Source: Clostridia bacterium
GTDB taxonomy: Bacteria; Bacillota; Clostridia; Oscillospirales; CAG-272
Reading direction: 5' to 3'
DNA length: 64,000 nucleotides
NCBI GenBank assembly: GCA_017387685.1
Contig: JAFOEU010000024.1
Span: 29,800-93,799, forward strand
Program-made: the position numbers and the translations under genes
The notes under the pieces: model-generated
Seen by the model: only the letters and a program-made list of their open reading frames with translations
The model's database searches: none
What the model was told of the DNA's origin: nothing
Shown here: in pieces, positions 3,651-56,204 of the stretch
How positions within the stretch are numbered: the first letter of the stretch is position 1
How the letters are laid out: each line of letters starts with the position of its first letter

Positions 3651-3737
3651 GAGAATGATAATCTCGCTGCGCGAGAATGATAATCCGCTGTGCGGAATGA
3701 TAGTTTGCCTTCGGCAAAATGAAGGTAAATTTTCATC
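3651..3737 (+). repeat. Array of ~22-nt mini-hairpin units with a conserved AATGATAAT linker, ending in GAAGGTAAATTTTC
   Basis: AATGATAAT-CTCGC/tgc/GCGAG, AATGATAAT-CCGC/tgt/GCGG, AATGATAGT-TTGCC/ttc/GGCAA, then AATGAAGGTAAATTTTC. The same family occurs inverted at 49741-49825. Confidence 0.8.
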
Positions 3738-13369: not shown

Positions 13370-13460
13370 TGAAATACATGAAAAAGGCAAACCTTTCGAA
13401 AGGGGGGACGCAAAGCTACGGGGCCTAAGGTATTAAATTACCTTTTGTCCAAAGAATAAT
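13370..13460 (+). promoter_or_regulatory. c-di-GMP-I (GEMM-I) riboswitch aptamer
   Basis: AGGCAAACCTTTCGAAAGGGGGGACGCAAAGCTACGGGGCCTAAGG matches the conserved GEMM-I core (GGCAAACC..GAAA..GGACGCAAAGC..CGG.GCCUAA, as in V. cholerae Vc2). The following AAGGTA-TTAAAT-TACCTT helix fits the P3 (third helix) position. Confidence 0.7.
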
Positions 13461-13469
13461 TTAATACTA

Positions 13470-13500
13470 TGGCAGCCCGGCTGCCAGTGTTTTGTTCTCT
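13470..13500 (+). terminator. Candidate riboswitch expression-platform terminator
   Basis: TGGCAGC-CCG-GCTGCCA followed by GTGTTTTGTTCTCTTTT, about 30 nt before the RBS of the adhesin gene. Confidence 0.5.
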
Positions 13501-13528
13501 TTTAAATATTCAAAGGAGAATAACAAAC

Positions 13529-16500
13529 ATGGCAAAACAAATTTTCAAAAAGGGTTTGTGTGCTCTGCTCGCCGCTCTTATGTGCGTAGGTGCTGCTCTG
13601 CCTGCATTGGCAGAAACCGTATGGCAGGGTGACGATGCAAAGATTAACATCGCAGCCGGAGAGGATCCCTACGTGTATGCAATCGCGCAGGATCCCGAAA
13701 ACAATCGCTGGTACTACGAAACCAGTAACCACACCGTCAAGAAAGAAGTAACCGGCGGCGGAGCTATACACATCTTCCCCATAGTTGACACAACTAAGGT
13801 TACCGGTGACTGGACTCCCGACGGCATTTACAACTGGGGCGTAAGCAACTACGACGTTATGTACTGCTGTGATGCTGTTACCGGCACGGATAACGAAGCT
13901 TACTATAAGCGCGTAAACCTTGAGGACAGCGAGTACGTTTCCGAAACCGATGCAAAGAGACTTCGTGCTATCGTAGAAAACGCTTATCCTTACGTTTCTG
14001 TTGAAGCAGCGAAGGCAGCGCTTAAGGAAGCAGGCTTTGCACAGGCTGAAGAGCTTGACCGCTCTGAGCTTATTGCTGCAACTCAGGCTGCTATCTGGAC
14101 TATTGCTAACCCTGACAGCGGTGATTCCTATCGCTACAACAAGACTGCAACAACCGCTCAGAAGCTTACTTGGGGCGGCTATATGCACGAGTTTGCAGAC
14201 GAGATCACTAATTTCACAGATAGCAAGACCTCGGCAAAGTACCTCTCCAATCCCAACGGTGTTGGCACGCGTGTCAACGCTCTCATTGACTTCTATCTTG
14301 CAATGGAAGGCGCTGAGGCAGAGGACGGTCAGATCGTTATCACCAATCTTGACGTTTCCAACTCCAAGATTGCAAAGTCTGATAATCTTTATGCAGTAGA
14401 GATCAACGTATCTCTCAACCACGGCGCAGATGATAACGATAATATCACCCTTAACGTTTACGTTGACGGTGTGATCACTAACATATCCGTTAATGTAACC
14501 AACGAAACCAACTATAAAGTAAATCTGAATGCAAAGGCAAACTCTACCATCAAGGTAGTTGTTTCCGGTACTCAGAATCTTGAGCGCGGCGTATATTTCT
14601 ATATTCCCGAGCCTAAGGATATCAACGGCGACGGTATCGCTACCTCCCGTGAGGTTTCTCAGAACCTTATCGGTCTTGCAGCAGGTGAAACCCCTGTTTA
14701 CGCAGAGGAAACCGTAACCCTTCGTAAGATCGACAAGACCGCTGACAATTTCGATGGTGAATTTGTTGACGTTACTCTCGAGGTAACCGGCAACGTTGAG
14801 TATAACCCCGGTGGCAAGCTCCCCGTAGATATCATCTATATTCTCGGTAGATTCCTCTCTCTGGAAGACATTCTTGCAGACACAATGATTCAGGCGCTGA
14901 CCGAGACCTTCCGTGAGCTGATCAACGACGGAGTTCCCGTAAACTTCGGTATCGTTCCCTTCTCCTCTACCAAGTATCCCGTAATGCCCCTCACTCCCCT
15001 TACAACTGAAGCAGATCTCGAGGCTCTTCCCGCGACCATCGCTACTGCTATTGCGGAAGCAGGCAACGTTTACGACGGTGTAAACATGGAGAACGCGCTC
15101 CTCACCGCAACCGAGATGTTCAGCGCATCCGAGCTTGGTCAGGCAGGTCGTACCGACCGTCAGCACCTCGTAATGATCGCTTCCGGTCATACATACTACT
15201 TCAACAGCGGCGATAACAATGAGTATATCTCTACTGTTCCCGTAAGCTTCAAGAATGGCAACGTAGATACCAACGAGGTATTCTATATGGAAAAGGCTTG
15301 GATGCGTGCGCGTAACAACAGCACCAACTCCTATCCCGTTCCCAAGGCTATCTCCGAGTACTACAAGGCAAACGCTGATAAGTATGAAAGCGAGTGGGAT
15401 TGCTACTGGAGCCTTATCGATGCGTGGTCAAAGGCAGATATTGCTGCAGGCGACACCGTCGTATACGAGGCAACAACCCGCGAAGCAGGTGATTTCATTA
15501 ATTGGATGAACTCCGGTAAGTATTCCTCCAACACCTCCACCTTCTCTTATTCCGGTAACGGTGCGGTTGTTTCCAATCTCGGCAACAACAAGATCGAGGA
15601 CGTACTTGAATTCGATATGACCAGCAGCGCTGAAAGAGGCGTTGTGCACGGCGTATCCGGTCCTAACCCCTTCATCGATGAGTCCGCAGCTCACGCAATC
15701 AGCTACGAGCGCGCTATGTGGGAAGCTTACACCTTCATCCAGGAGAATATTTCCGGCAAGGGCATCAGCTTCTATCCTGTATATGCTCCTCTCCGAATCA
15801 ACGGTACAGCATCTAACGGTTCTCATTATGACTATACCTGGACCACTAACTACATCGGTCATTGCTTTATGAACATGCTTGCAGGCGGCGAGGCAATCTT
15901 CTTCGATGCCAACAACGTAACCTTCTTTGACGATATCAAGGCTGAGATCATCGAGGGAAGCACCACCGCATCCGGCGAACCTGTTGTTCCCTTCGTAGAG
16001 GACTTTATCGGCGTTGACTTCGACTTCACCGGCGAAAAGATCGTTCTTACATTCAACGGTGTTGCTTATACCACTAACGTGATCGCAACCGCAGAGGGCG
16101 CAACCGCTTCTTATGCATTCGTTGGCGAGAACGGTAAGGTTGGCTTCACCATGGATTACTTCAAGGGTGAGACTCCTGCAGAAGAGCGCTTCGTTTGGTA
16201 CTTCTACAAGTCCGTTGGCGCAGAGGATACCGTAGCTCTTACTTATCAGCTCAAGCTGGTAAACAGAAACGAGACTCCCGGCAAGTGCTTTATCGCATAC
16301 ACCAACGAGTCCGCTACTCTTTATCCCAACGGTGACAGAGATTACGGTCAGGAATTCCCCAAGCCCTTCGTTGAGTACTGCAACCCCATCAAGACTCCTC
16401 CCACGATCTCCTTCAATTCCGGCGAAGCTTCTAACATCAGCTTTATGCTGGTCAACAAGGCAACCGGAAAGGTTACCTTCGTTAAGAAGATCGATATCGG

Positions 16501-16900
16501 TAGCGAGACCTCCTTCGTGATCCCCACTGAGGAAGGCTACGTTTCTGCAGTATTTGTAAAGCAGTCCACCTCCGGTATGTTCTGGGCATCTGAAGAGCTT
16601 GATAAGGCAACTCAGAACGCAGTTATCGCTTGTCTGAAGGCTAACAATCCTTCTTACAAGGGACATTGGGACGAGTTCTTCTTCGGCGCAGGCGACTGCA
16701 CTTGGGAGTTCAAGAAGAACAAATCGATTACCTACACCTTCACCGGCGATATTGTAGTTACCGACTCCGACAAAGAGCCCGCTGAAGAAATCGTTGATAC
16801 ACCCGCAGTTGAGGAAGAAACCACTTCCAATAAAAACAACGGCAACAACGGCAACGGTAACAACAAGAATAAGGACAAAAACAAAAACAAGAACAAATAA
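13529..16900 (+). CDS. Secreted thioester-domain (TQXA / Cys-Gln thioester) surface adhesin with a VWA-like domain and an Asn/Lys-rich tail
   Basis: AAAGGAGA RBS and a signal peptide ending ALPALA. Thioester domain motifs are YCCD (13862-13873), NAYPY and TQAAIW (14081-14098). A central VWA-like region (DIIYILGRF...LVMIASGHTYYF) follows. The C-terminus NKNNGNNGNGNNKNKDKNKNKNK has no LPXTG. Confidence 0.75.
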   Translation: MAKQIFKKGLCALLAALMCVGAALPALAETVWQGDDAKINIAAGEDPYVYAIAQDPENNRWYYETSNHTVKKEVTGGGAIHIFPIVDTTKVTGDWTPDGIYNWGVSNYDVMYCCDAVTGTDNEAYYKRVNLEDSEYVSETDAKRLRAIVENAYPYVSVEAAKAALKEAGFAQAEELDRSELIAATQAAIWTIANPDSGDSYRYNKTATTAQKLTWGGYMHEFADEITNFTDSKTSAKYLSNPNGVGTRVNALIDFYLAMEGAEAEDGQIVITNLDVSNSKIAKSDNLYAVEINVSLNHGADDNDNITLNVYVDGVITNISVNVTNETNYKVNLNAKANSTIKVVVSGTQNLERGVYFYIPEPKDINGDGIATSREVSQNLIGLAAGETPVYAEETVTLRKIDKTADNFDGEFVDVTLEVTGNVEYNPGGKLPVDIIYILGRFLSLEDILADTMIQALTETFRELINDGVPVNFGIVPFSSTKYPVMPLTPLTTEADLEALPATIATAIAEAGNVYDGVNMENALLTATEMFSASELGQAGRTDRQHLVMIASGHTYYFNSGDNNEYISTVPVSFKNGNVDTNEVFYMEKAWMRARNNSTNSYPVPKAISEYYKANADKYESEWDCYWSLIDAWSKADIAAGDTVVYEATTREAGDFINWMNSGKYSSNTSTFSYSGNGAVVSNLGNNKIEDVLEFDMTSSAERGVVHGVSGPNPFIDESAAHAISYERAMWEAYTFIQENISGKGISFYPVYAPLRINGTASNGSHYDYTWTTNYIGHCFMNMLAGGEAIFFDANNVTFFDDIKAEIIEGSTTASGEPVVPFVEDFIGVDFDFTGEKIVLTFNGVAYTTNVIATAEGATASYAFVGENGKVGFTMDYFKGETPAEERFVWYFYKSVGAEDTVALTYQLKLVNRNETPGKCFIAYTNESATLYPNGDRDYGQEFPKPFVEYCNPIKTPPTISFNSGEASNISFMLVNKATGKVTFVKKIDIGSETSFVIPTEEGYVSAVFVKQSTSGMFWASEELDKATQNAVIACLKANNPSYKGHWDEFFFGAGDCTWEFKKNKSITYTFTGDIVVTDSDKEPAEEIVDTPAVEEETTSNKNNGNNGNGNNKNKDKNKNKNK

Positions 16901-16951: not shown

Positions 16952-16986
16952 AAAAAACAAGCAAGGCGAAAAGCCTTGCTTGTTTC
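16952..16986 (+). terminator. Terminator-like hairpin after the adhesin gene
   Basis: AACAAGCAAGGC-GAAAA-GCCTTGCTTGTTT. Confidence 0.6.
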
Positions 16987-16995
16987 AAGCACAAA

Positions 16996-17036
16996 CAAAA
17001 AGCACAATGGACCTCGGTCCATTGTGCTTTTTGTTT
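16996..17036. terminator. Bidirectional rho-independent terminator
   Basis: AAAAAGCACAATGGAC-loop-GTCCATTGTGCTTTTTGTTT, a perfect 16-bp stem flanked by A and T tracts. Confidence 0.8.
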
Positions 17037-17171
17037 AAAACGACAGGAATCAAGAACCTACATTTGCGCGCTTTATTGGGTGTAATAGTATGATTCGGCG
17101 GTCGCGCGCAAATGATTGCTGTTGCTAAAGCAACAGCAAGAGCTTCGAGTCCGCGGGCAGTTCGGGCAAAT

Positions 17172-17203
17172 ATAAAGGGGATGGCTCTGCCATCCCCTTT
17201 ATA
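17172..17203 (-). terminator. Rho-independent terminator downstream of tRNA-Pro
   Basis: AAAGGGGATGGC-loop-GCCATCCCCTTT with a T-rich tail on the minus strand. Confidence 0.7.
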
Positions 17204-17205
17204 TT

Positions 17206-17281
17206 TGGTCGAAGTGACAGGACTCGAACCTGCAGCATCGTGCTCCCAAAGCACGCGCGCTACCAATTGCGCCACACCTCG
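17206..17281 (-). tRNA. tRNA-Pro (anticodon UGG), CCA encoded
   Basis: The reverse complement reads CGAGGTG-TG-GCGCAATTGGTAGCGC-G-CGTGC-TTTGGGA-GCACG-ATGCT-GCAGG-TTCGAGT-CCTGT-CACTTCG-A-CCA. This is a full cloverleaf with anticodon loop T-T-TGG-G-A. Confidence 0.88.
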
Positions 17282-23766: not shown

Positions 23767-23960
23767 TTAGTTACTAGTTGCTAGTTACTAGTTGCTAGTT
23801 GAAGGTAAATTTTCGCGGAGCGAAAATTTTCATCTATAAATCTATTATAAAAAACTCGGATATAGGAGCCAAAGTCCCCTATATCCGAGTTTTATTTGAT
23901 TTTCGAGCAAAGTGAGAAAATCTTCCTTTAACTAGTAACCAGCAACTAGTAACTAGTAAC
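23767..23960. repeat. Composite palindromic intergenic element (CTAG heptamer arrays + GAAGG + hairpins + central bidirectional terminator)
   Basis: (TTRCTAG)x5-GAAGG-TAAATTTTCGC/gga/GCGAAAATTTT on the left. The centre is AAAAAACTCGGATAT[..]ATATCCGAGTTTT (23849-23896). The right arm is GATTTTCGAGC..GAGAAAATC-TTCCTTT-(AACTAGY)x4. It starts immediately after the amidase stop codon. Confidence 0.85.
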
Positions 23961-24005
23961 TTTACAAACTAATGTCCAACATATGCGCAGAATTCTTCCC
24001 GCTCG

Positions 24006-41996: not shown

Positions 41997-42042
41997 AATT
42001 TTGTACCTCCAAAATATTTTATATTCATCCGCTTTCGGTTTA

Positions 42043-42088
42043 GCACTTAACATTACGCGCAATCTTTCTTGTGCGCAATGTTAACTGC
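42043..42088 (-). promoter_or_regulatory. Long hairpin in the pnp 5' leader
   Basis: The minus strand reads GCAGTTAACATTGCGCA-CAAGAAAGAT-TGCGCGTAATGTTAAGTGC, a stem of about 14 bp roughly 50 nt upstream of the pnp start. Confidence 0.45.
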
Positions 42089-42124
42089 TAATCCACAGCG
42101 GACGTTAGTTTTTTAATTAAAATT

Positions 42125-42185
42125 GAAATCCGCTCAGGCGGATTTCTACCTTCAACTAGCAACTAGTAACTAGCAACTAGCAACT
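42125..42185. repeat. Half copy of the composite element (hairpin + CCTTC + CTAG heptamers) between rpsO and pnp
   Basis: GAAATCCGC-TCAG-GCGGATTTC, then TACCTTC, then (AACTAGY)x4. Confidence 0.8.
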
Positions 42186-42186
42186 T

Positions 42187-42242
42187 AAAAATACATTTGG
42201 GGCAAGGGGCGGCACGTCAAGCGCGACCGTCCTTCTTGCCCC
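42187..42242 (-). terminator. rpsO terminator hairpin
   Basis: The minus strand reads GGGGCAAGAAGG....CCCCTTGCCCC followed by AAATGTATTTTT. Confidence 0.6.
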
Positions 42243-44409: not shown

Positions 44410-44690
44410 GTAAGAGGGCAGAGGGCAGAGAGCAGAGGGCAGAGGTAAGGTAAATTTTCGCTGAAGCGAAAATTATTCTTATGATAATTTTGTGCTCTGC
44501 TGATAAAGCCTTATACCCTTGAAGCTCTTTACTGTGCTGAATATAATATAGAATCCCGGATATCTTGAAGCTTTTCTGATATTCGGGATTTTATTTTGCT
44601 CATTATATTATCCCGCCGAAGCATCCGCTCATCTCCGCGTGACATAATTGCAGCACTAATAATTGTCGCCCACGGCGAAAATTATCCTTC
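44410..44690. repeat. Variant composite element: GAGGGCA heptamers in place of CTAG heptamers
   Basis: GTAA-(GAGGGCA/GAGAGCA)x4-GAGGTAAGG-TAAATTTTCGC/tgaa/GCGAAAATTA on the left. The central hairpin is ATCCCGGATATC..GATATTCGGGATTTTATTTT (44551-44597). The right arm is AATTGTCGCC/cac/GGCGAAAATT-ATCCTTC. It starts right at the SBP stop codon. Confidence 0.75.
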
Positions 44691-46418: not shown

Positions 46419-47330
46419 ATGAGACTTGCAACATCAACCTGCATCTTCCCCGCACACCGTCAGGGTGGGCGCACACCTCTTGAAGAATCAATTAAAATGT
46501 GTCACGAATGCGGCTTCCGCGTCATCGACCTCAACTGGGGCGGCGCGGGAGGACTCGGCGCAAAGAGCGAGCTTGCGGGCGACGATTGGGAGAGAAATAT
46601 CGACTCCCTCGGCAACCTTGCGGCAAAGCTCGGCATCGAGTTTTCGCAGTCACACATGCCTTTCGATTCCAACCTTTACCGCCCCGAGCAAAAGCTTTCG
46701 GACGAATACCGCGTATGGTTTGCCGAGGCAAGCCGCCGCTGTATCGTTGCATCGGGCAAGCTCGGCGTTCGCTGGGTAGTCACCCACGCGCAGACCGCGA
46801 CCGAGTGCGATGAGATGTCATTTGACGAAAATATGCGCGCGAATATCCACTACTACACTCCCCTTCTTGAACTTGCCAAAAAAGAGGGCACGGGAATCGC
46901 CATTGAAAATATGGCGGAGTTCAATCCGGGAAAGACCAAGCACCGCTTCACTGCCGCGCTTGATGAGCAGATCGCTATCATCGACGCGATGGGCGATCCC
47001 ATTTCCTGCCGTGCTTGTTGGGACTTCGGTCACGCCGAGCTCGTTTACCGCGATCAGGTAAAGCCTCTGCGCAAGCTCGGACACCGTCTCGCTGCAACCC
47101 ACGTTCAGGAATGTGACGGACGTGAGGACGATCACTATCTCCCCTTTGTCCGCGGAAACACAAACTGGGAAGAGATCATGCCCCTTCTCAAAGAGATCGG
47201 CTACGACGGCGACTTCACCTACGAGGTACACGGATTCTACTCCAAGATCCCCGATGACCTGCGAATCGAAGCAGGAAAGCTTGGATATAAGGTGGGAATG
47301 TATTTGATGGAGATGTATGATAAAGCGTGA
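46419..47330 (+). CDS. Sugar phosphate isomerase/epimerase (xylose isomerase-like TIM barrel)
   Basis: 303 aa with an AGGAGA RBS. The metal-ligand pattern is typical (IAIENM.., WDFGHA.., THVQE) for AP_endonuc_2 family proteins. Confidence 0.78.
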   Translation: MRLATSTCIFPAHRQGGRTPLEESIKMCHECGFRVIDLNWGGAGGLGAKSELAGDDWERNIDSLGNLAAKLGIEFSQSHMPFDSNLYRPEQKLSDEYRVWFAEASRRCIVASGKLGVRWVVTHAQTATECDEMSFDENMRANIHYYTPLLELAKKEGTGIAIENMAEFNPGKTKHRFTAALDEQIAIIDAMGDPISCRACWDFGHAELVYRDQVKPLRKLGHRLAATHVQECDGREDDHYLPFVRGNTNWEEIMPLLKEIGYDGDFTYEVHGFYSKIPDDLRIEAGKLGYKVGMYLMEMYDKA

Positions 47331-47337
47331 GAAGAAA

Positions 47338-47621
47338 GTTACTAGTTGCTAGTTGCTAGTTACTAGTTGAAGGAAGATTTTCTCGCTTTGCTCGAAAATC
47401 AGAGTCTACTATAATTTAATTTAGTGTTGATAATTATTCATTCAGTTATATAATTCAACACTTAAAAGAAAAAACTCGGATATTACGAGGCTTCGCCTCG
47501 ATATCCGAGTTTTTTGCTTTGAACGGAATCCGATCCGCGCAGCATATTATTATTGATATAAAATTTTCGCTCCGCGAAAATTTACCTTTTACTAGCAACT
47601 AGCAACTAGTAACTAGCAACT
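47338..47621. repeat. Composite palindromic intergenic element (best-preserved copy)
   Basis: (TTRCTAG)x4-GAAGG-AAGATTTTCTCG..CTCGAAAATC on the left, then an AT-rich hairpin at 47423-47461. The centre is AAAAAACTCGGATAT-TACGAGGC/ttc/GCCTCG-ATATCCGAGTTTTTT (47469-47515). The right arm is AAAATTTTCGC/tcc/GCGAAAATTT-ACCTTTT-(ACTAGYA)x4. The last unit overlaps the stop codon of the GDPD gene. Confidence 0.88.
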
Positions 47622-48403
47622 TACTTTCTAAGTCCCTTCTTCGCAAGATATTCCTGCGCCTTGGGGAGATTATTCGTGGTGAGGTTCACGCAGCGCGCGT
47701 TGATGGCGTTGTCCATCTGTTCCTCGGTGGTGCCGGAGAGGAAGAGGACGAGTCCCTTGCCCTCAACGAAATCCGCACCGTCGAGTGTCTTCTTTACGCT
47801 CTCGGGATCGGTCTTTGAGCCCGGGAGGGATACGCCGTAGAGGCGGTCGTAGATCGACTCGTCAAGACGCTTCATCGAATAGGGCATAAAGGAGAGAGTC
47901 TTGAACTCGGGGTAGTAATCCTGAAGATATTTGAGGGTGGGGCAGTCGCCGGCTTCAATAACGGTGCGCTCGACAAGATCGTACTTGCGGAGCATTTCGA
48001 CCACGATATCAACGCACTGCGGGCGGAAATCCTTGATCTCGACGATGTGGAGAGGCTTATAATCGTAGCTTACGAAAAGATCGAGCGTTTCCTCGAGAGT
48101 GGGGACGCGGCAGCCCTTGAACTGCTCGCCGAACTTGATGCCGGCGTCGAGCTGTTTGATCTCCTCAAGAGTCATAAAGCTGATCGCGCCGAAGCCGTCG
48201 GTGGTGCGCTCGACGGTCTGGTCGTGCATAATTACGGGCACGTTATCGCGGCTGAGGTGAACGTCATATTCAAGAACGTCACAGCCGCCGTCAAGTGCCG
48301 CGCGGAAGGACTCGAGTGTATTTTCGGGGAACAGATCCTTGATACCTCTGTGCGCGGTGATCTGGATATTCTGTCTTGTTGCATCTTCCCATCTGATAGC
48401 CAT
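47621..48403 (-). CDS. Glycerophosphodiester phosphodiesterase family protein
   Basis: AHRG..FPENTLESF..A...G.D.LEYDVHLS.D..PV.MHD.T..RTT.G is the GDPD catalytic signature. Confidence 0.85.
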   Translation of the reverse strand: MAIRWEDATRQNIQITAHRGIKDLFPENTLESFRAALDGGCDVLEYDVHLSRDNVPVIMHDQTVERTTDGFGAISFMTLEEIKQLDAGIKFGEQFKGCRVPTLEETLDLFVSYDYKPLHIVEIKDFRPQCVDIVVEMLRKYDLVERTVIEAGDCPTLKYLQDYYPEFKTLSFMPYSMKRLDESIYDRLYGVSLPGSKTDPESVKKTLDGADFVEGKGLVLFLSGTTEEQMDNAINARCVNLTTNNLPKAQEYLAKKGLRK

Positions 48404-49440: not shown

Positions 49441-49825
49441 TGATTAAGGTAAATTTCCGCCGAAAGGCGGAAATTTTCTTTTTATTTTATTTGGCGCGCC
49501 CTTCGGGCGCGGGGGGACATAGCACAATCCTTCCCTACATTCGGGAAGGATTGACTATGTCCAAAATCGAGAAGCAAAGCTTCACGATTTTGAAGCGCGG
49601 TGGCGAGACCTGAAGGTCTCGCATTAAATCGAGACGCTGTCTCGAGCTCTGCAACCTTTTAAAAAAGGTTGACCAAAAATTTCCGCGGGAGTTATTTTTA
49701 AAAATCGAAAATTTCCGAGCCACGCGAGGAAATTAACCTTCATTTTGCCGAAGGCAAATTATCACTCTCGCAAAGCGAGATTATCACTCCGCCGAAGGCG
49801 GATTATCATTCGCGCGAAGCGCGAC
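49441..49825. repeat. 385-bp non-coding region made of at least 12 consecutive hairpins, ending in a 22-nt mini-hairpin unit array
   Basis: AAATTTCCGCC/gaaa/GGCGGAAATTT plus a T tract serves as the terminator of the + gene. Further hairpins are GGCGCGCCC/ttc/GGGCGCG, a long stem at 49516-49561, AAAATCGAGAAGC/aaa/GCTTCACGATTTT, GCGAGACC/tgaa/GGTCTCGC, TCGAGAC/gctg/TCTCGA and CAACCTTTT/AAAAGGTTG. The array at 49745-49823 then has four hairpins separated by ATTATCAYT. Confidence 0.8.
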
Positions 49826-52666: not shown

Positions 52667-52714
52667 TGTTAGATCCTTTCTCATTTATAAGTACATATTG
52701 ATTTTGCTTGCGGT

Positions 52715-53053
52715 AACCCGAAGTTGCGCGGGCTTCTTCCACCGCTTCCGCGGTCCCCCTCCCTCCCGGAGAGAGGCTAAGGAGCATCTGCAGACTCCTA
52801 TGGATATTCAGACGAATATTATTCAGATATATAGTTTTGTATAGCAAATAGGAATATTTTTATTAAAATAATTATGCACTCGTAATGGCGCACTATCTTT
52901 TAATAAAGTATTCCTCTATTGACCTAAACAAAATTAAAGATGATAACAAAGTACGGTGCAGAAAAGAACGAGTTTGCACTAACCCAGCCTCCCTCCGGGA
53001 GGGAGGGAGGGGGACCACGGAAGTGGTGGAAGGAGCCCGCGCAACTTCGGATT
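52715..53053. repeat. Long GC-rich inverted repeat (about 64/68 bp arms) flanking a ~205-bp AT-rich core
   Basis: The left arm is CCGAAGTTGCGCGGGCTTCTTCCACCGCTTCCGCGGTCCCCCTCCCTCCCGGAGAGAGGCT. The reverse complement of the right arm is CCGAAGTTGCGCGGGCTCCTTCCACCACTTCCGTGGTCCCCCTCCCTCCCTCCCGGAGGGAGGCT. Confidence 0.85.
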
Positions 53054-53090
53054 TTTTGCAATTTGTATCCAGTGATATATCAGATAATCA

Positions 53091-56044: not shown

Positions 56045-56197
56045 TCAAGTTGCTAGTTACTAGTTGCTAGTTACTAGTTAATGGTGAATTTTCTCACTGC
56101 GTTCGAAAATTTTCCATTTCAATTAAATTGAAAATTTTCGCTTGCGAAAATTCTCCTTCAACTAGCAACTAGCGTCTAGCAACTAGCAACTAGCAAC
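56045..56197. repeat. Composite palindromic element (compact copy without the CTCGGATAT terminator module)
   Basis: (TTRCTAG)x4-TTAATGG-TGAATTTTCTCAC..TTCGAAAATTTT on the left. The centre is TTTCAATT/AATTGAAA. The right arm is AAATTTTCGC/ttg/CGAAAATT-CTCCTTC-(AACTAGC)x5-6 and ends 8 nt before the GH gene stop. Confidence 0.85.
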
Positions 56198-56204
56198 TAA
56201 ATTC

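What the first reader, a model, noticed from the sequence alone, without database searches (positions are those of the whole stretch)
47338..47621. Modular palindromic intergenic element: all-frame-stop CTAG heptamer arrays bracketing a bidirectional terminator (family type copy)
The whole 284-bp gap between two convergent genes is one imperfect palindrome built of modules. The order is (TTRCTAG)x4, GAAGG, a GATTTTC..GAAAATC hairpin, an AT-rich hairpin and a strong hairpin AAAAAACTCGGATAT[inner CGAGGC/ttc/GCCTCG]ATATCCGAGTTTTTT. Then come AAATTTTCGC/tcc/GCGAAAATTT, CCTTTT and (ACTAGYA)x4. The outer arrays start within 0-8 nt of the flanking stop codons. A 7-nt period containing CTAG puts a TAG in all three frames, and because CTAG is palindromic this holds on both strands. 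The same grammar recurs at 23767-23960 and 56045-56197. A half copy lies at 42125-42185, and copies with swapped spacer modules lie at 44410-44690, 3651-3737 and 49441-49825. The junction GAAGG(T/A)AA(A)TTTTC is conserved in all of them. I do not recognise this as REP/BIME, ERIC, BOX, RUP, CRISPR or any named repeat family. It looks like a dedicated translation and transcription insulator, or a non-autonomous mobile cassette that targets gene 3' ends.
Basis: seen in the sequence. Interest (0 to 1): 0.72.

Follow-up and report, generated by a model that had tools for sequence, protein, structure and literature searches.

The report
Selfish palindromic cassette with heptamer arms
The gap between two converging genes is filled by a dispersed, palindrome-shaped DNA cassette whose arms each carry about five 7-base repeats. 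It is the gene-less form of a widespread, poorly understood cassette that normally carries a small "intervening-sequence protein" gene, which ties together two old puzzles of bacterial genomes.

Summary
Window 47337-47621 is a 285-bp palindrome with a ~4.6-unit TTRCTAG array at each end, an AAGG junction, small hairpins and a central bidirectional terminator. All 28 CTAG tetramers of the 64-kb window lie in such arrays.

The dispersed unit is the ~64-nt arm (array, AAGG, hairpin). It is multicopy in the source gut metagenomes. Relatives lack the elements at three orthologous sites.

In relatives the array slot holds other heptamers (AGAGGGC, AGTGCRG, TGCAAAA), several without stop codons. The all-frame-stop property is therefore incidental, and the "dedicated insulator" reading is not supported.

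The same arms, down to both hairpins, flank PF05635 genes (23S-rRNA intervening-sequence protein, S23p, Avd-like) in related rumen Clostridia. In 10 plasmid-borne PF05635 genes chosen by protein similarity alone, 9 (TRF) to 10 (by eye) have period-7/8 arrays at both ends, mostly inverted.

The element is therefore a gene-less, MITE-like relative of IVS-type cassettes, here carrying a terminator as cargo. How it moves is unknown. RNase III cutting of the paired arms is inferred from published IVS work. Verdict: new variant of a known kind. The general link between heptamer repeats and PF05635 appears undescribed.

The parts
46419..47330 (+). Left flanking gene (AP_endonuc_2 / xylose-isomerase-like TIM barrel). 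Its stop TGA is at 47328-47330, 6 nt before the element.
47337..47369 (+). Left outer array, (AGTTRCT) x4.7, terminus 5'-AGT.
47365..47375 (+). Junction AGTTGAAGGAA. It is conserved as AGTT(G/A)A(A/G)GG in all arms, including those of PF05635 cassettes.
47376..47400 (+). Hairpin B: 7-bp stem GATTTTC/GAAAATC with the conserved 11-nt loop TCGCTTTGCTC. The same hairpin stands in the left arm of the PF05635 cassette in L295.
47424..47461 (.). AT-rich hairpin, an insertion relative to copy c23. It holds a sigma-70-like TTGATA-16-TATAAT match.
47469..47515 (.). Cargo: bidirectional intrinsic terminator, A6 - stem of about 21 pairs with inner CGAGGC/GCCTCG - T6. The outer stem is shared with c23 (23851-23893).
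47561..47583 (.). Hairpin A, AAATTTTCGC-TCC-GCGAAAATTT. Across 20 arms, 8 of its 9 pairs show compensatory changes.
47584..47590 (-). Junction ACCTTTT, the complement of the AAGG junction.
47591..47621 (-). Right outer array, (AGTTRCT) x4.4 read on the minus strand. Its last base is the first A of the stop codon of the right gene.
47621..48403 (-). Right flanking gene (glycerophosphodiester phosphodiesterase, GDPD).
23768..23961 (-). Sister copy c23: the same element in the opposite orientation (76% identity over 219 columns), between the amidase and thioredoxin-reductase-like genes.
56048..56199 (.). Short copy c56 without a terminator, between two co-oriented genes. A relative's contig joins 56041 to 56205, i.e. 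lacks it.
42123..42185 (-). Single arm c42 in the rpsO-pnp gap. At this site L244 has a PF05635 cassette, and a related strain has a GCAAAAT-type array that appears in an RNA contig.
44410..44690 (.). Copy c44. The left arm has (AGAGGGC) x4.7 in place of CTAG heptamers, there is its own terminator-like hairpin, and the right arm has no array.
3651..3737 (+). Arm whose outer module is three 22-nt hairpin repeats (sub-threshold Gut-1 RNA hit), followed by GAAGGTAAATTTTC.
49441..49825 (.). Composite copy c49 with the same three-hairpin outer module abutting the aldolase stop codon. The orthologous gap in relative L243 is 21 nt.

Best explanation
The element is a gene-less, MITE-like member of a family of selfish palindromic cassettes of the "intervening sequence" (IVS) type.

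A full cassette has this order: an outer array of about five heptamers starting with AGT, an AGTTRARGG junction, hairpin B, a PF05635 gene (S23p / 23S-rRNA intervening-sequence protein, Avd-like), hairpin A, the complementary CCTT junction, and the inverted array. In window 47337-47621 the gene is replaced by an AT-rich hairpin and a bidirectional intrinsic terminator.

Shown here by computation:
- the anatomy;
- that the ~64-nt arm is the dispersed multicopy unit;
- presence/absence at orthologous sites;
- arm homology with gene-carrying cassettes;
- structural conservation of hairpin A.

Inferred:
- The copy reached this gap by insertion or cassette replacement.
- It persists because, placed between convergent genes, it does no harm and supplies the terminator for both transcripts.
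- Where both arms are transcribed together (for example c56 inside an operon), the arrays and junctions pair into a dsRNA stem of about 35-40 bp that RNase III cuts, as published for IVSs in 23S rRNA. That would make the insert tolerable.

TAG in all frames on both strands is a side effect of one heptamer variant. It may lower the cost of landing next to an ORF, but it is not the conserved feature. The mobilising activity is unknown.
For: Anatomy and terminator.

Arm as the repeat unit: in four gut metagenomes, depth over 47337-47400 and 47556-47637 is 10-30x that of the flanking genes, and 6-10x at >=95% identity in the source samples. Loose ends start exactly at 47336/7 and 47621-3.

Whole-element copies at unrelated loci: c47 versus c23.

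Presence/absence: L243 (GDPD 89% identical) has a 91-nt gap with an unrelated plain terminator where the window has c47, and a 21-nt gap where the window has the 385-nt c49. An X10 contig joins 56041 to 56205, skipping c56.

Same slot, other heptamers, near-constant 4.3-4.9 units.

Gene-carrying cassettes with the same arms:
- L295 has array - AGTTGAGG - TGAATTTTCTCGCTTTGCGAGAAAATTT - PF05635 ORF - ATATTTTTCGCCTTGCGAAAAG - CTACCATAA - array.
- L263, L273, L305, L311 and L244 are similar.

Hairpin A: 97.8% of cells paired, 8 of 9 pairs with compensatory change, 0 of 500 shuffles as high.

Generality:
- PF05635 ORFs directly abut CTAG-heptamer arrays in Saccharibacteria, Acidobacteriota, Planctomycetota and Chryseobacterium loci.
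- Ten plasmid PF05635 genes were chosen by tblastn alone. Nine (TRF) to ten (by eye) have period-7/8 arrays at both ends, one of them inside 23S rRNA.
- Overall, 15 of 23 IVP ORFs have arrays at both ends against 8 of 147 control ORFs (Fisher p=1e-10). In 13 of the 15 pairs the arrays are reverse complements.

Published: the Coxiella IVS has a 28-bp terminal inverted-repeat stem, an S23p ORF and tandem heptamers (GACAGAT) of variable number. RNase III cuts at the first repeat, and IVSs are regarded as selfish or possibly mobile (PMC4990558).
Against: - No target-site duplication and no recognisable transposase or recombinase were found. PF05635 is not a known enzyme.
- No PF05635 gene lies in the 64-kb window. 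I did not find a PF05635 cassette with CTAG arrays in this particular clade; the Clostridia cassettes I saw use AGTGCRG, AATGCTR or TGCAAAA units.
- The relatives used for presence/absence are 75-89% identical in protein or about 85% in DNA. Deletion or ordinary intergenic turnover cannot be excluded, and the c56 empty site rests on one Logan contig.
- In c47 an efficient central terminator would keep the two arrays in separate transcripts, so the RNase III step cannot apply to this copy as it stands.
- The two arms of one element can carry non-complementary heptamers (L244 3134-3270, L295), so stem formation by the arrays is not universal.
- One plasmid cassette (L285) has direct, not inverted, arrays.
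- The plasmid sample is dominated by cyanobacteria.
Confidence: 0.6

Rival explanations
1. A host-evolved dedicated insulator. The CTAG heptamer arrays exist to stop ribosomes in every frame on both strands, and the hairpins exist to stop RNA polymerase, so that convergent genes are fully isolated.
For: The arithmetic holds: a 7-nt period with CTAG gives TAG in all frames on both strands. Arrays begin 0-8 nt from stop codons at c47, c23 (left), c44 and c56 (right). The central hairpin is a good bidirectional terminator.
Against: Equivalent arms carry heptamers with no stop codon on either strand (AGAGGGC in this window; AGTGCRG and GGACAGY in relatives). Arms also occur upstream of start codons (c56 left, L104, L115) and after terminators (c42, L129, L145). 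Close relatives manage without the element at the same gene pairs. The same arms flank a selfish-looking gene inside operons.
Confidence: 0.08
2. A REP/BIME- or REPIN-like family mobilised by a RAYT (IS200/IS605-type Y1 transposase) acting on the single-stranded hairpins. Under this reading the heptamer arrays are passengers.
For: High copy number, short imperfect palindromes with a conserved 5' motif (AAGG) next to the hairpin, inverted pairs and singlets, no target duplication, and a preference for 3' ends of genes.
Against: No RAYT or Y1 transposase was found among the window's genes or in the relatives' loci. There is no GTAG-type tetranucleotide. The array is part of the sharply bounded repeat unit. 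The only gene found between such arms is PF05635.
Confidence: 0.1
3. Ordinary slipped-strand heptanucleotide repeats (LSSR/STRR) that arise in place next to ordinary terminators and hairpins. Nothing moves, and the similarity between loci comes from convergent sequence constraints.
For: Heptanucleotide repeats are known to be over-represented in many bacterial intergenic regions and have been ascribed to polymerase slippage (Mrazek 2007 as cited in PMC4679880 and PMC4692102). CTAG heptamer arrays occur in many phyla.
Against: Array length is nearly fixed at 4.3-4.9 units and is joined in register to the same junction and hairpins. c47 and c23 are alignable over their whole length, including the terminator stem. 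The arm has sharp multicopy boundaries.
Confidence: 0.07
4. The arrays are binding sites on RNA (or single-stranded DNA) for a ring-shaped protein that reads one short motif per subunit. They would regulate termination or mRNA decay of the adjacent genes. The model is HutP, which binds UAG-N4-UAG-N4-UAG, or TRAP; the candidate reader here is the PF05635 pentamer.
For: (UUGCUAG)n is exactly UAG at a 7-nt period (the HutP motif is from my own knowledge, not tested here). About 5 units per array matches a pentamer: the PDB 2rld entry has 5 chains, and S23p of X. campestris is a homopentamer according to PMC4990558. The array at the rpsO site is present in a metatranscriptome contig. Closely related PF05635 proteins have the same or related heptamers.
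Against: There are no binding data. The heptamers differ widely and one type (GCAAAAT) has no NAG triplet. No HutP/TRAP or PF05635 gene lies in the window. In other phyla arrays have 3-20 units. The same CTAGCAA unit stands next to PF05635 proteins only 20-38% identical.
Confidence: 0.15

Closest known systems
Intervening sequences (IVS) of bacterial 23S rRNA genes with or without an S23p / PF05635 ORF (Leptospira, Coxiella, Salmonella, Brucella, Xanthomonas)
   Same: Terminal inverted repeats form a long stem around a small cargo. Both ORF-containing and ORF-less forms exist. Tandem heptamers sit in the stem region (Coxiella GACAGAT, copy number variable). The distribution is sporadic and IVSs are regarded as selfish. 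One plasmid example fetched here (L294, Azospirillum) sits in 23S rRNA and has inverted heptamer arrays.
   Different: The window copies lie between protein-coding genes, not in rRNA helices 25/45. They are present at roughly one arm per 8 kb. They carry an intrinsic terminator as cargo. They have a fixed arm grammar: about 5 heptamers, an AAGG junction and hairpin A or B. RNase III processing is untested here.
Heptanucleotide long simple sequence repeats: cyanobacterial STRR, TAACTGA repeats of Beggiatoaceae/Cyanobacteria/Bacteroidetes, GGGAATC repeats of Xanthomonas
   Same: Intergenic tandem 7-mers of a few to tens of copies, next to start or stop codons. Some occur as inverted pairs between convergent genes. 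TAACTGA also gives stops in all three frames. Function is unknown and the phylogenetic distribution is patchy.
   Different: Those reports treat the arrays as free-standing repeats. Here each array is the outer module of a bounded composite arm, and it is linked to PF05635 cassettes. None of the papers I could search makes that link.
REP/BIME and REPIN elements with RAYT transposases
   Same: Very abundant short palindromic units, as singlets and inverted doublets, in mosaic arrangements with variable linkers. They sit at 3' ends and between convergent genes, and they have no target duplication.
   Different: No RAYT gene and no GTAG motif. There is an outer tandem array. The associated gene is a four-helix-bundle protein, not a Y1 transposase.
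Bacterial MITE-like structured repeats (Correia/NEMIS of Neisseria, BOX and RUP of pneumococcus, ERIC)
   Same: They are 100-300 bp, modular, with inverted ends, and fold into long hairpins in transcripts. Correia elements are cut by RNase III (from my own knowledge). They are ORF-less derivatives that outnumber any gene-carrying form.
   Different: No TA or other target duplication. The termini are tandem heptamers rather than unique inverted repeats. No sequence similarity. The gene-carrying form encodes no known transposase.
Gut-1 RNA motif (Rfam RF01706; Weinberg et al. 2010, human gut metagenome only)
   Same: The sister arms at 3653-3730 (+) and 49732-49811 (-) match the whole 77-nt model: three tandem hairpins with UNCG-type loops separated by UGAAAU-like linkers, in the sense of the upstream gene.
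   Different: The scores are 34-35 bits against a gathering score of 50, and the linker is UGAUAAU. In the window the motif is not a free-standing sRNA gene but the outer module of an arm, followed by the GAAGG junction. It is not part of c47 itself.

Membership tests
IVS-type cassette (23S rRNA intervening sequence / PF05635 element) | Terminal inverted repeats that pair into a long stem enclosing the element | tested here: met
   Arrays plus junctions pair over about 35-40 bp. Whole-element folds are -110/-114 kcal/mol for c47 and similar for c23, c56, L136, L213 and L241.
IVS-type cassette (23S rRNA intervening sequence / PF05635 element) | Encodes an S23p / PF05635 four-helix-bundle protein (ORF-less IVSs also exist) | tested here: not met
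   There is no PF05635 ORF in c47 or anywhere in the window. Cassettes with the same arms in relatives do encode it, with Pfam E-values of 1e-24 to 1e-43.
IVS-type cassette (23S rRNA intervening sequence / PF05635 element) | Inserted in helix 25 or 45 of 23S rRNA | tested here: not met
   c47 lies between two protein-coding genes. No rRNA lies in the window.
IVS-type cassette (23S rRNA intervening sequence / PF05635 element) | Excised or cut at the stem by RNase III | not testable with these tools
   Only assembled contigs of metatranscriptomes were available, and they do not show RNA ends.
IVS-type cassette (23S rRNA intervening sequence / PF05635 element) | Tandem heptamers in the terminal stem region (described for Coxiella) | tested here: met
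   This is general for PF05635 genes sampled here.
Heptanucleotide LSSR / STRR | Tandem direct repeats of a 7-nt unit, intergenic, longer than chance | tested here: met
   TRF finds 4.4-5.9 copies. The pattern occurs 19 times against 0.01 expected.
REP/BIME/REPIN | Cognate RAYT (Y1 transposase) gene and a conserved GTAG-type tetranucleotide 5' of a 20-40-nt palindrome | tested here: inconclusive
   No Y1_Tnp was found among about 40 window proteins or in the called genes of L243-L245, but the whole genome was not available. The motif next to the palindrome is AAGG, not GTAG.
MITE (non-autonomous DNA transposon) | Terminal inverted repeats plus target-site duplication, and a related autonomous element encoding a transposase | tested here: not met
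   Inverted ends are present. There are no direct repeats at the boundaries of 26 arms (my reading). The related gene-carrying element encodes PF05635, not a transposase.
Bidirectional intrinsic terminator | G+C-containing stem-loop preceded by an A run and followed by a T run, so that both strands read hairpin plus U tract | tested here: met
   47469-47515 is A6, a stem of about 21 pairs, then T6. It is in the MFE and centroid folds of both sense halves. Actual termination is not testable here.
Gut-1 RNA (RF01706) | Score at or above the Rfam gathering threshold | tested here: not met
   c47 gives no hit. The sister arms at 3653-3730 and 49732-49811 score 34-35 bits against 50.
HutP-type antiterminator site | UAG-N4 triplet repeats together with a HutP gene and a target terminator | not tested
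   The RNA pattern fits (UAG every 7 nt). No HutP gene was looked for outside the window, and other heptamers in the same slot lack UAG.
CRISPR array | Repeats of 23-50 nt separated by unique spacers | tested here: not met
   The repeats are contiguous 7-nt units without spacers.

The most novel reading that the evidence does not exclude
PF05635 "intervening-sequence" proteins and heptamer arrays form one pan-bacterial kind of mobile cassette. The homopentameric protein would read about five heptamers, one per subunit, at each end. The cassette would neutralise itself in transcripts through RNase III cutting of the paired arrays. Its gene-less derivatives and decayed ends would be the source of much of the long-unexplained excess of heptanucleotide repeats (STRR, TAACTGA and similar) in cyanobacteria, Bacteroidota, planctomycetes, acidobacteria and gut Clostridia. 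Given the homology of PF05635 to the DGR accessory protein Avd, mobility might pass through an RNA or cDNA intermediate.
Probability: 0.3. Interest if true: 0.85.

Novelty: new variant of a known kind. Interest (0 to 1): 0.68.

Why it matters
Three loose ends of bacterial genomics have stood apart for 20-35 years:
- why heptanucleotide tandem repeats are over-represented in many genomes;
- what the very numerous PF05635 "four helix bundle / S23p" genes do;
- how the intervening sequences of rRNA genes spread.

The element studied here shows a fixed grammar: about five heptamers, a junction, a hairpin, cargo, and the mirror image. The gene-carrying and gene-less forms share this grammar. In every PF05635 context sampled here the gene is bracketed by such arrays.

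That turns a vague association into testable hypotheses. One is protein-array binding. Another is RNase III self-removal. A third is insertion polymorphism.

For annotation, these cassettes supply terminators. They split operons such as pyrF-pyrE and the cas operons. They also break short-read assemblies of gut Clostridia at every arm.

Tried and rejected
- Rfam at gathering thresholds finds nothing in the element. At E<=1 the only hits on c56 are meaningless plant miRNA-precursor hits, which merely reflect a long hairpin. The Gut-1 hits are on other arms.
- A scan of IMG/VR viral contigs with the junction pattern gave 17 hits, none with an array, so the family is not phage-borne in that collection.
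- The metagenome scan returned mostly chance matches. Only about 14 of 120 loci were true arms.
- A literature search for the exact array strings found only unrelated primers and constructs.
- I looked for target-site duplications at 26 arm boundaries and found none. TAAGT, a stop codon fused to the AGT terminus, recurs but is not general.
- The idea that the two arrays must be complementary was dropped after L244 3134-3270 and L295 showed arms with different heptamers.
- The idea that NAG triplets are the common denominator of the heptamers failed on GCAAAAT.
- The idea that GAAGG is a Shine-Dalgarno remnant of the lost ORF is possible but unproven. In L295 the junction and hairpin B both precede the ORF and its own ribosome-binding site.
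I therefore could not check whether the window's own organism has a PF05635 gene with CTAG arrays.
That placement rests on MAG titles and source names.
Full report
**1.

Window 47331-47620 is the whole gap between two convergent genes. On the left is a xylose-isomerase-like TIM-barrel gene (46419..47330, +). On the right is a glycerophosphodiester phosphodiesterase gene (47621..48403, -).

Tandem Repeats Finder reports period-7 arrays at 47337-47369 (4.7 units) and 47591-47621 (4.4 units, inverted). It reports the same kind of arrays at 23768-23801/23929-23961, 42153-42185 and 56048-56080/56159-56199. It also reports an AGAGGGC array at 44413-44445.

- CTAGYWRCTAG occurs 19 times against 0.01 expected.
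- The junction GAAGGWAAWTTTTC, with up to one mismatch, occurs 7 times against 0.13 expected.
- All 28 CTAG tetranucleotides of the 64-kb window lie in these arrays. There is none elsewhere, against about 250 expected from base composition.

The gap folds as one palindrome, about -110 kcal/mol on either strand. Its centre (47469-47515) is A6, a stem of about 21 pairs, then T6, which makes it an intrinsic terminator on both strands. The two sense halves fold with z-scores of -5.9 and -6.3.

**2. The repeat unit is the arm, and whole elements are copied**

c47 read forward aligns end to end with c23 read backward: 219 aligned columns at 76% identity. The order of modules is the same in both: array, GAAGG, hairpin B (GATTTTC/11-nt loop/GAAAATC), terminator with the shared outer stem AAAACTCGGATAT, hairpin A (AAATTTTCGC-loop-GCGAAAATTT), CCTT, array. 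c47 has two extra insertions.

I laid contigs of ruminant and other gut metagenomes on the locus.
- Depth over 47337-47400 and 47556-47637 is 10-30 times that of the flanking genes. It is 6-10 times at >=95% identity in the two samples that hold this genome.
- Unmatched continuations start exactly at 47336/7 and 47621-3.
- Some contigs join the left arm directly to the right arm.

The same pattern is seen at c56. The ~64-nt arm (array, AAGG junction, hairpin) is therefore the dispersed unit, and the interior is variable cargo.

The window holds 7 CTAG arms, one AGAGGGC arm and two arms with a different outer module, roughly one arm per 8 kb.

The surrounding genes are ordinary housekeeping genes of a Clostridia bacterium (recA, recX, recG, nrdD, pnp, rpsO, rbfA, ABC transporters). 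No transposase is among them. MAG titles and source names place the organism among uncultured "Eubacteriales"/Clostridia of herbivore gut.

**3. Presence/absence at orthologous sites**

A contig from a relative (L243; its GDPD is 89% identical) keeps the same gene order.
- Where the window has c47, it has a 91-nt gap with an unrelated plain terminator.
- Where the window has the 385-nt composite c49, it has a 21-nt gap.

One contig of a bovine gut metagenome joins window 56041 directly to 56205. It thus lacks the 163 nt that hold c56, leaving the upstream stop codon about 25 nt from the downstream start.

L243 and L244 have no CTAG at all in 12 and 20 kb. These relatives are not strains of the same species, so deletion cannot be excluded. 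Even so, the elements are clearly gained or lost as units.

No direct repeats flank the 26 arm boundaries I read. The outer terminus is always 5'-AGT.

**4. All-frame stops are not the conserved feature**

At equivalent slots (outer array, then (T/G)AAGG, then the AAATTTTC-type hairpin) relatives carry other heptamers:
- AGAGGGC in this window;
- AGTGCRG and TCAGCGG in L244;
- GGACAGY in L104;
- GCAAAAT/TGCAAAA in a related strain at the very rpsO-pnp site where the window has arm c42.

These arrays are almost always 4.3-4.9 units long. Several of these units have no stop codon on either strand.

Three arms face start codons. By my reading of the flanks, 17 of 20 classifiable arms face a stop codon or a terminator (binomial p=0.0013). 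That bias is what purifying selection on a terminator-carrying insert would also produce.

Decayed units are mostly CCAG/CTGG. This fits a genome-wide pressure against CTAG and suggests that intact arrays are young or maintained.

The array at the rpsO site is joined to rpsO in a metatranscriptome contig, so at least that arm is transcribed.

**5. What the arms belong to**

In L244, the rpsO-pnp gap holds a 114-aa ORF between inverted AGTGCGG arrays. It is PF05635 (23S rRNA intervening-sequence protein, E=1e-27). It is 1e-37 to PDB 2rld, an entry with five chains.

Its close homologues are very numerous in gut metagenomes; at least 7971 proteins score E<=1e-10. In many species of this clade they sit between pyrF and pyrE, or after ychF.

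Their flanks have the window's grammar. Locus L295 reads:
- stop codon of pyrF;
- AGTGCAG array;
- AGTTGAGG;
- TGAATTTTCTCGCTTTGCGAGAAAATTT, which is hairpin B with the same loop as in c47;
- the PF05635 ORF;
- ATATTTTTCGCCTTGCGAAAAG, which is hairpin A;
- CTACCATAA;
- TTTTGCA array.

L263, L273, L305 and L311 have array, AGTTAAG/AGTTAGG, ORF, hairpin A, TACCTTAA/TACCATAA, inverted array. Alignments place arrays, junctions and hairpins of ORF-less and ORF-carrying arms in register.

Across 20 arms, hairpin A keeps 97.8% of cells paired, and 8 of its 9 pairs show changes on both sides. None of 500 shuffles reaches this, and slid controls pair at 31-63%.

c47 is thus the gene-less counterpart of a PF05635 cassette, with an AT-rich hairpin and a terminator in the place of the gene.

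**6. The link is general**

In those loci PF05635 ORFs directly abut the arrays in:
- a Saccharibacteria MAG;
- an Acidobacteriaceae MAG (both sides);
- a Thermoguttaceae MAG (both sides);
- five Chryseobacterium genomes.

As a sample not chosen by repeats, I took ten PF05635 genes found on plasmids by tblastn alone. They come from Nostoc, Calothrix, Anabaena, Pseudanabaena, Picosynechococcus, Stanieria, Riemerella, Gemmatirosa and Azospirillum.
- Nine (TRF thresholds) to ten (by eye) have arrays of period 7, or period 8 in two cases, at both ends.
- In eight of the ten loci these are the only such arrays of three or more copies in 4.3 kb.
- One gene lies inside a 23S rRNA gene.
- Others split cas6-cas4 and cas10-cmr3.

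Over all 23 PF05635 ORFs, 15 have arrays at both ends against 8 of 147 control ORFs (Fisher p=1e-10). In 13 of the 15 pairs the two arrays are reverse complements.

Closely related proteins have the same heptamer, as expected for inheritance of whole cassettes. Yet CTAGCAA also stands next to proteins only 20-38% identical.

**7. Comparison with what is known**

Intervening sequences of 23S rRNA genes are described as selfish, possibly once-mobile elements. They have terminal inverted repeats, they exist with or without an S23p ORF, and RNase III cuts them out of the precursor.

For Coxiella the authors report a 28-bp terminal stem. They also report three tandem GACAGAT heptamers, whose number varies between strains, and an RNase III cut at the first repeat. 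S23p of Xanthomonas is a homopentamer (PMC4990558). PF05635 is homologous to the DGR accessory protein Avd (PMC10053308).

Heptanucleotide repeats are separately known as over-represented and unexplained. Examples are Mrazek 2007 as cited in the papers read, STRR, TAACTGA and GGGAATC. The literature already notes inverted pairs between convergent genes, and stops in three frames for TAACTGA (PMC4679880 and PMC4692102).

I found no paper in the searchable library that connects the two beyond the Coxiella remark.

The alternative outer module of two sister arms is three 22-nt hairpins with UNCG-type loops, in the sense of the upstream gene. It gives full-length but sub-threshold matches to the Gut-1 RNA motif of Weinberg 2010.

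**8. Most likely mechanism, and its limits**

Shown by computation:
- the anatomy;
- the multicopy arm;
- gain or loss as a unit;
- homology with PF05635 cassettes;
- structural conservation of hairpin A;
- a canonical bidirectional terminator at the centre.

Inferred:
- c47 arrived by insertion or cassette replacement.
- It persists because between convergent genes it is harmless and now terminates both transcripts.
- Where both arms are co-transcribed (c56, or cassettes inside operons) the arrays and junctions pair and RNase III cuts them, as in rRNA IVSs.

Unknown: what moves the elements, why the period is 7, and why this clade keeps about 4.6 units. A pentameric PF05635 reading one heptamer per subunit is an attractive but untested idea.

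Points against the model:
- no enzyme has been found;
- no PF05635 gene lies in the window;
- no CTAG-armed PF05635 cassette was found in this clade;
- some elements have non-complementary arms;
- one cassette (L285) has direct arrays.

**9. Verdict**

The finding is real and non-random. The "insulator" reading is not supported as the reason the element exists. The "non-autonomous mobile cassette" reading is supported and can be made more precise: a gene-less, terminator-carrying variant of IVS-type PF05635 cassettes, in an uncultured rumen Clostridia lineage.

Novelty: new variant of a known kind. The general bracketing of PF05635 genes by inverted heptamer arrays appears to be undescribed and is worth a proper census.

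Noticed in passing
window 13376-13488 (+): A c-di-GMP-I riboswitch (67 bits, gathering score 35) lies immediately upstream of a 1143-aa thioester-domain (TED) surface protein gene at 13469..16900.
   Followed up: no
window 52707-53060: A palindrome of about 350 nt between two minus-strand genes. Its GC-rich arms of about 75 nt include CCTCCCTCCGGGAGGGAGGG, and its centre is AT-rich. Rfam's permissive search scores it as a plant miRNA precursor, which only means it is a long hairpin. It has no heptamer arrays.
   Followed up: no
window 3653-3730 (+) and 49732-49811 (-): Three tandem 22-nt hairpins with UNCG-type loops occupy the place of the heptamer array in two arms. They give full-length, sub-threshold hits (34-35 bits against 50) to the Gut-1 RNA motif, so far known only from human gut metagenomes. 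Both are in the sense of the upstream gene.
   Followed up: partly
window 49555-49680; L104 1258-1390: A multi-hairpin module of about 130 nt inside composite element c49 is 89% identical to a stretch at an unrelated locus of another MAG, with a compensatory change in one stem. It is another dispersed structured module of this clade.
   Followed up: partly
whole window: CTAG is absent outside the arrays. GGCC (35 against 198 expected), CCGG (121 against 350) and CATG (58 against 149) are also strongly depleted, suggesting restriction-modification or repair pressure. Decayed array units are mostly CCAG/CTGG.
   Followed up: partly
L285, L288 (cas6-cas4), L289 (cas10-cmr3), L263/L273/L295/L305/L311 (pyrF-pyrE), L294 (23S rRNA): PF05635 cassettes sit inside operons: type I-D and III-B CRISPR-cas loci on cyanobacterial plasmids, the pyr operon of many rumen Clostridia, and a 23S rRNA gene on an Azospirillum plasmid.
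   Followed up: partly
L275 vs L273: The same pyrF-pyrE cassette occurs with a 31-nt deletion that removes half of hairpin A, the junction and part of the right array. It is an example of arm decay.
   Followed up: no
window 47427-47454 (+): A sigma-70-like TTGATA-16-TATAAT match (11 of 12) lies inside the AT-rich hairpin of c47 and points at the terminator. It may be chance, since 1.1 such matches are expected in the region.
   Followed up: no
window 42030-42120 and 42199-42238: There is a long leader hairpin upstream of pnp, and the rpsO terminator hairpin. The single arm c42 sits between them, so rpsO read-through transcripts carry the arm into the pnp leader.
   Followed up: partly
window 16955-17036 and 17167-17207: Three strong hairpins (13-20 bp stems) bracket the tRNA-Pro(TGG) gene at 17206-17281 (-).
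   Followed up: no
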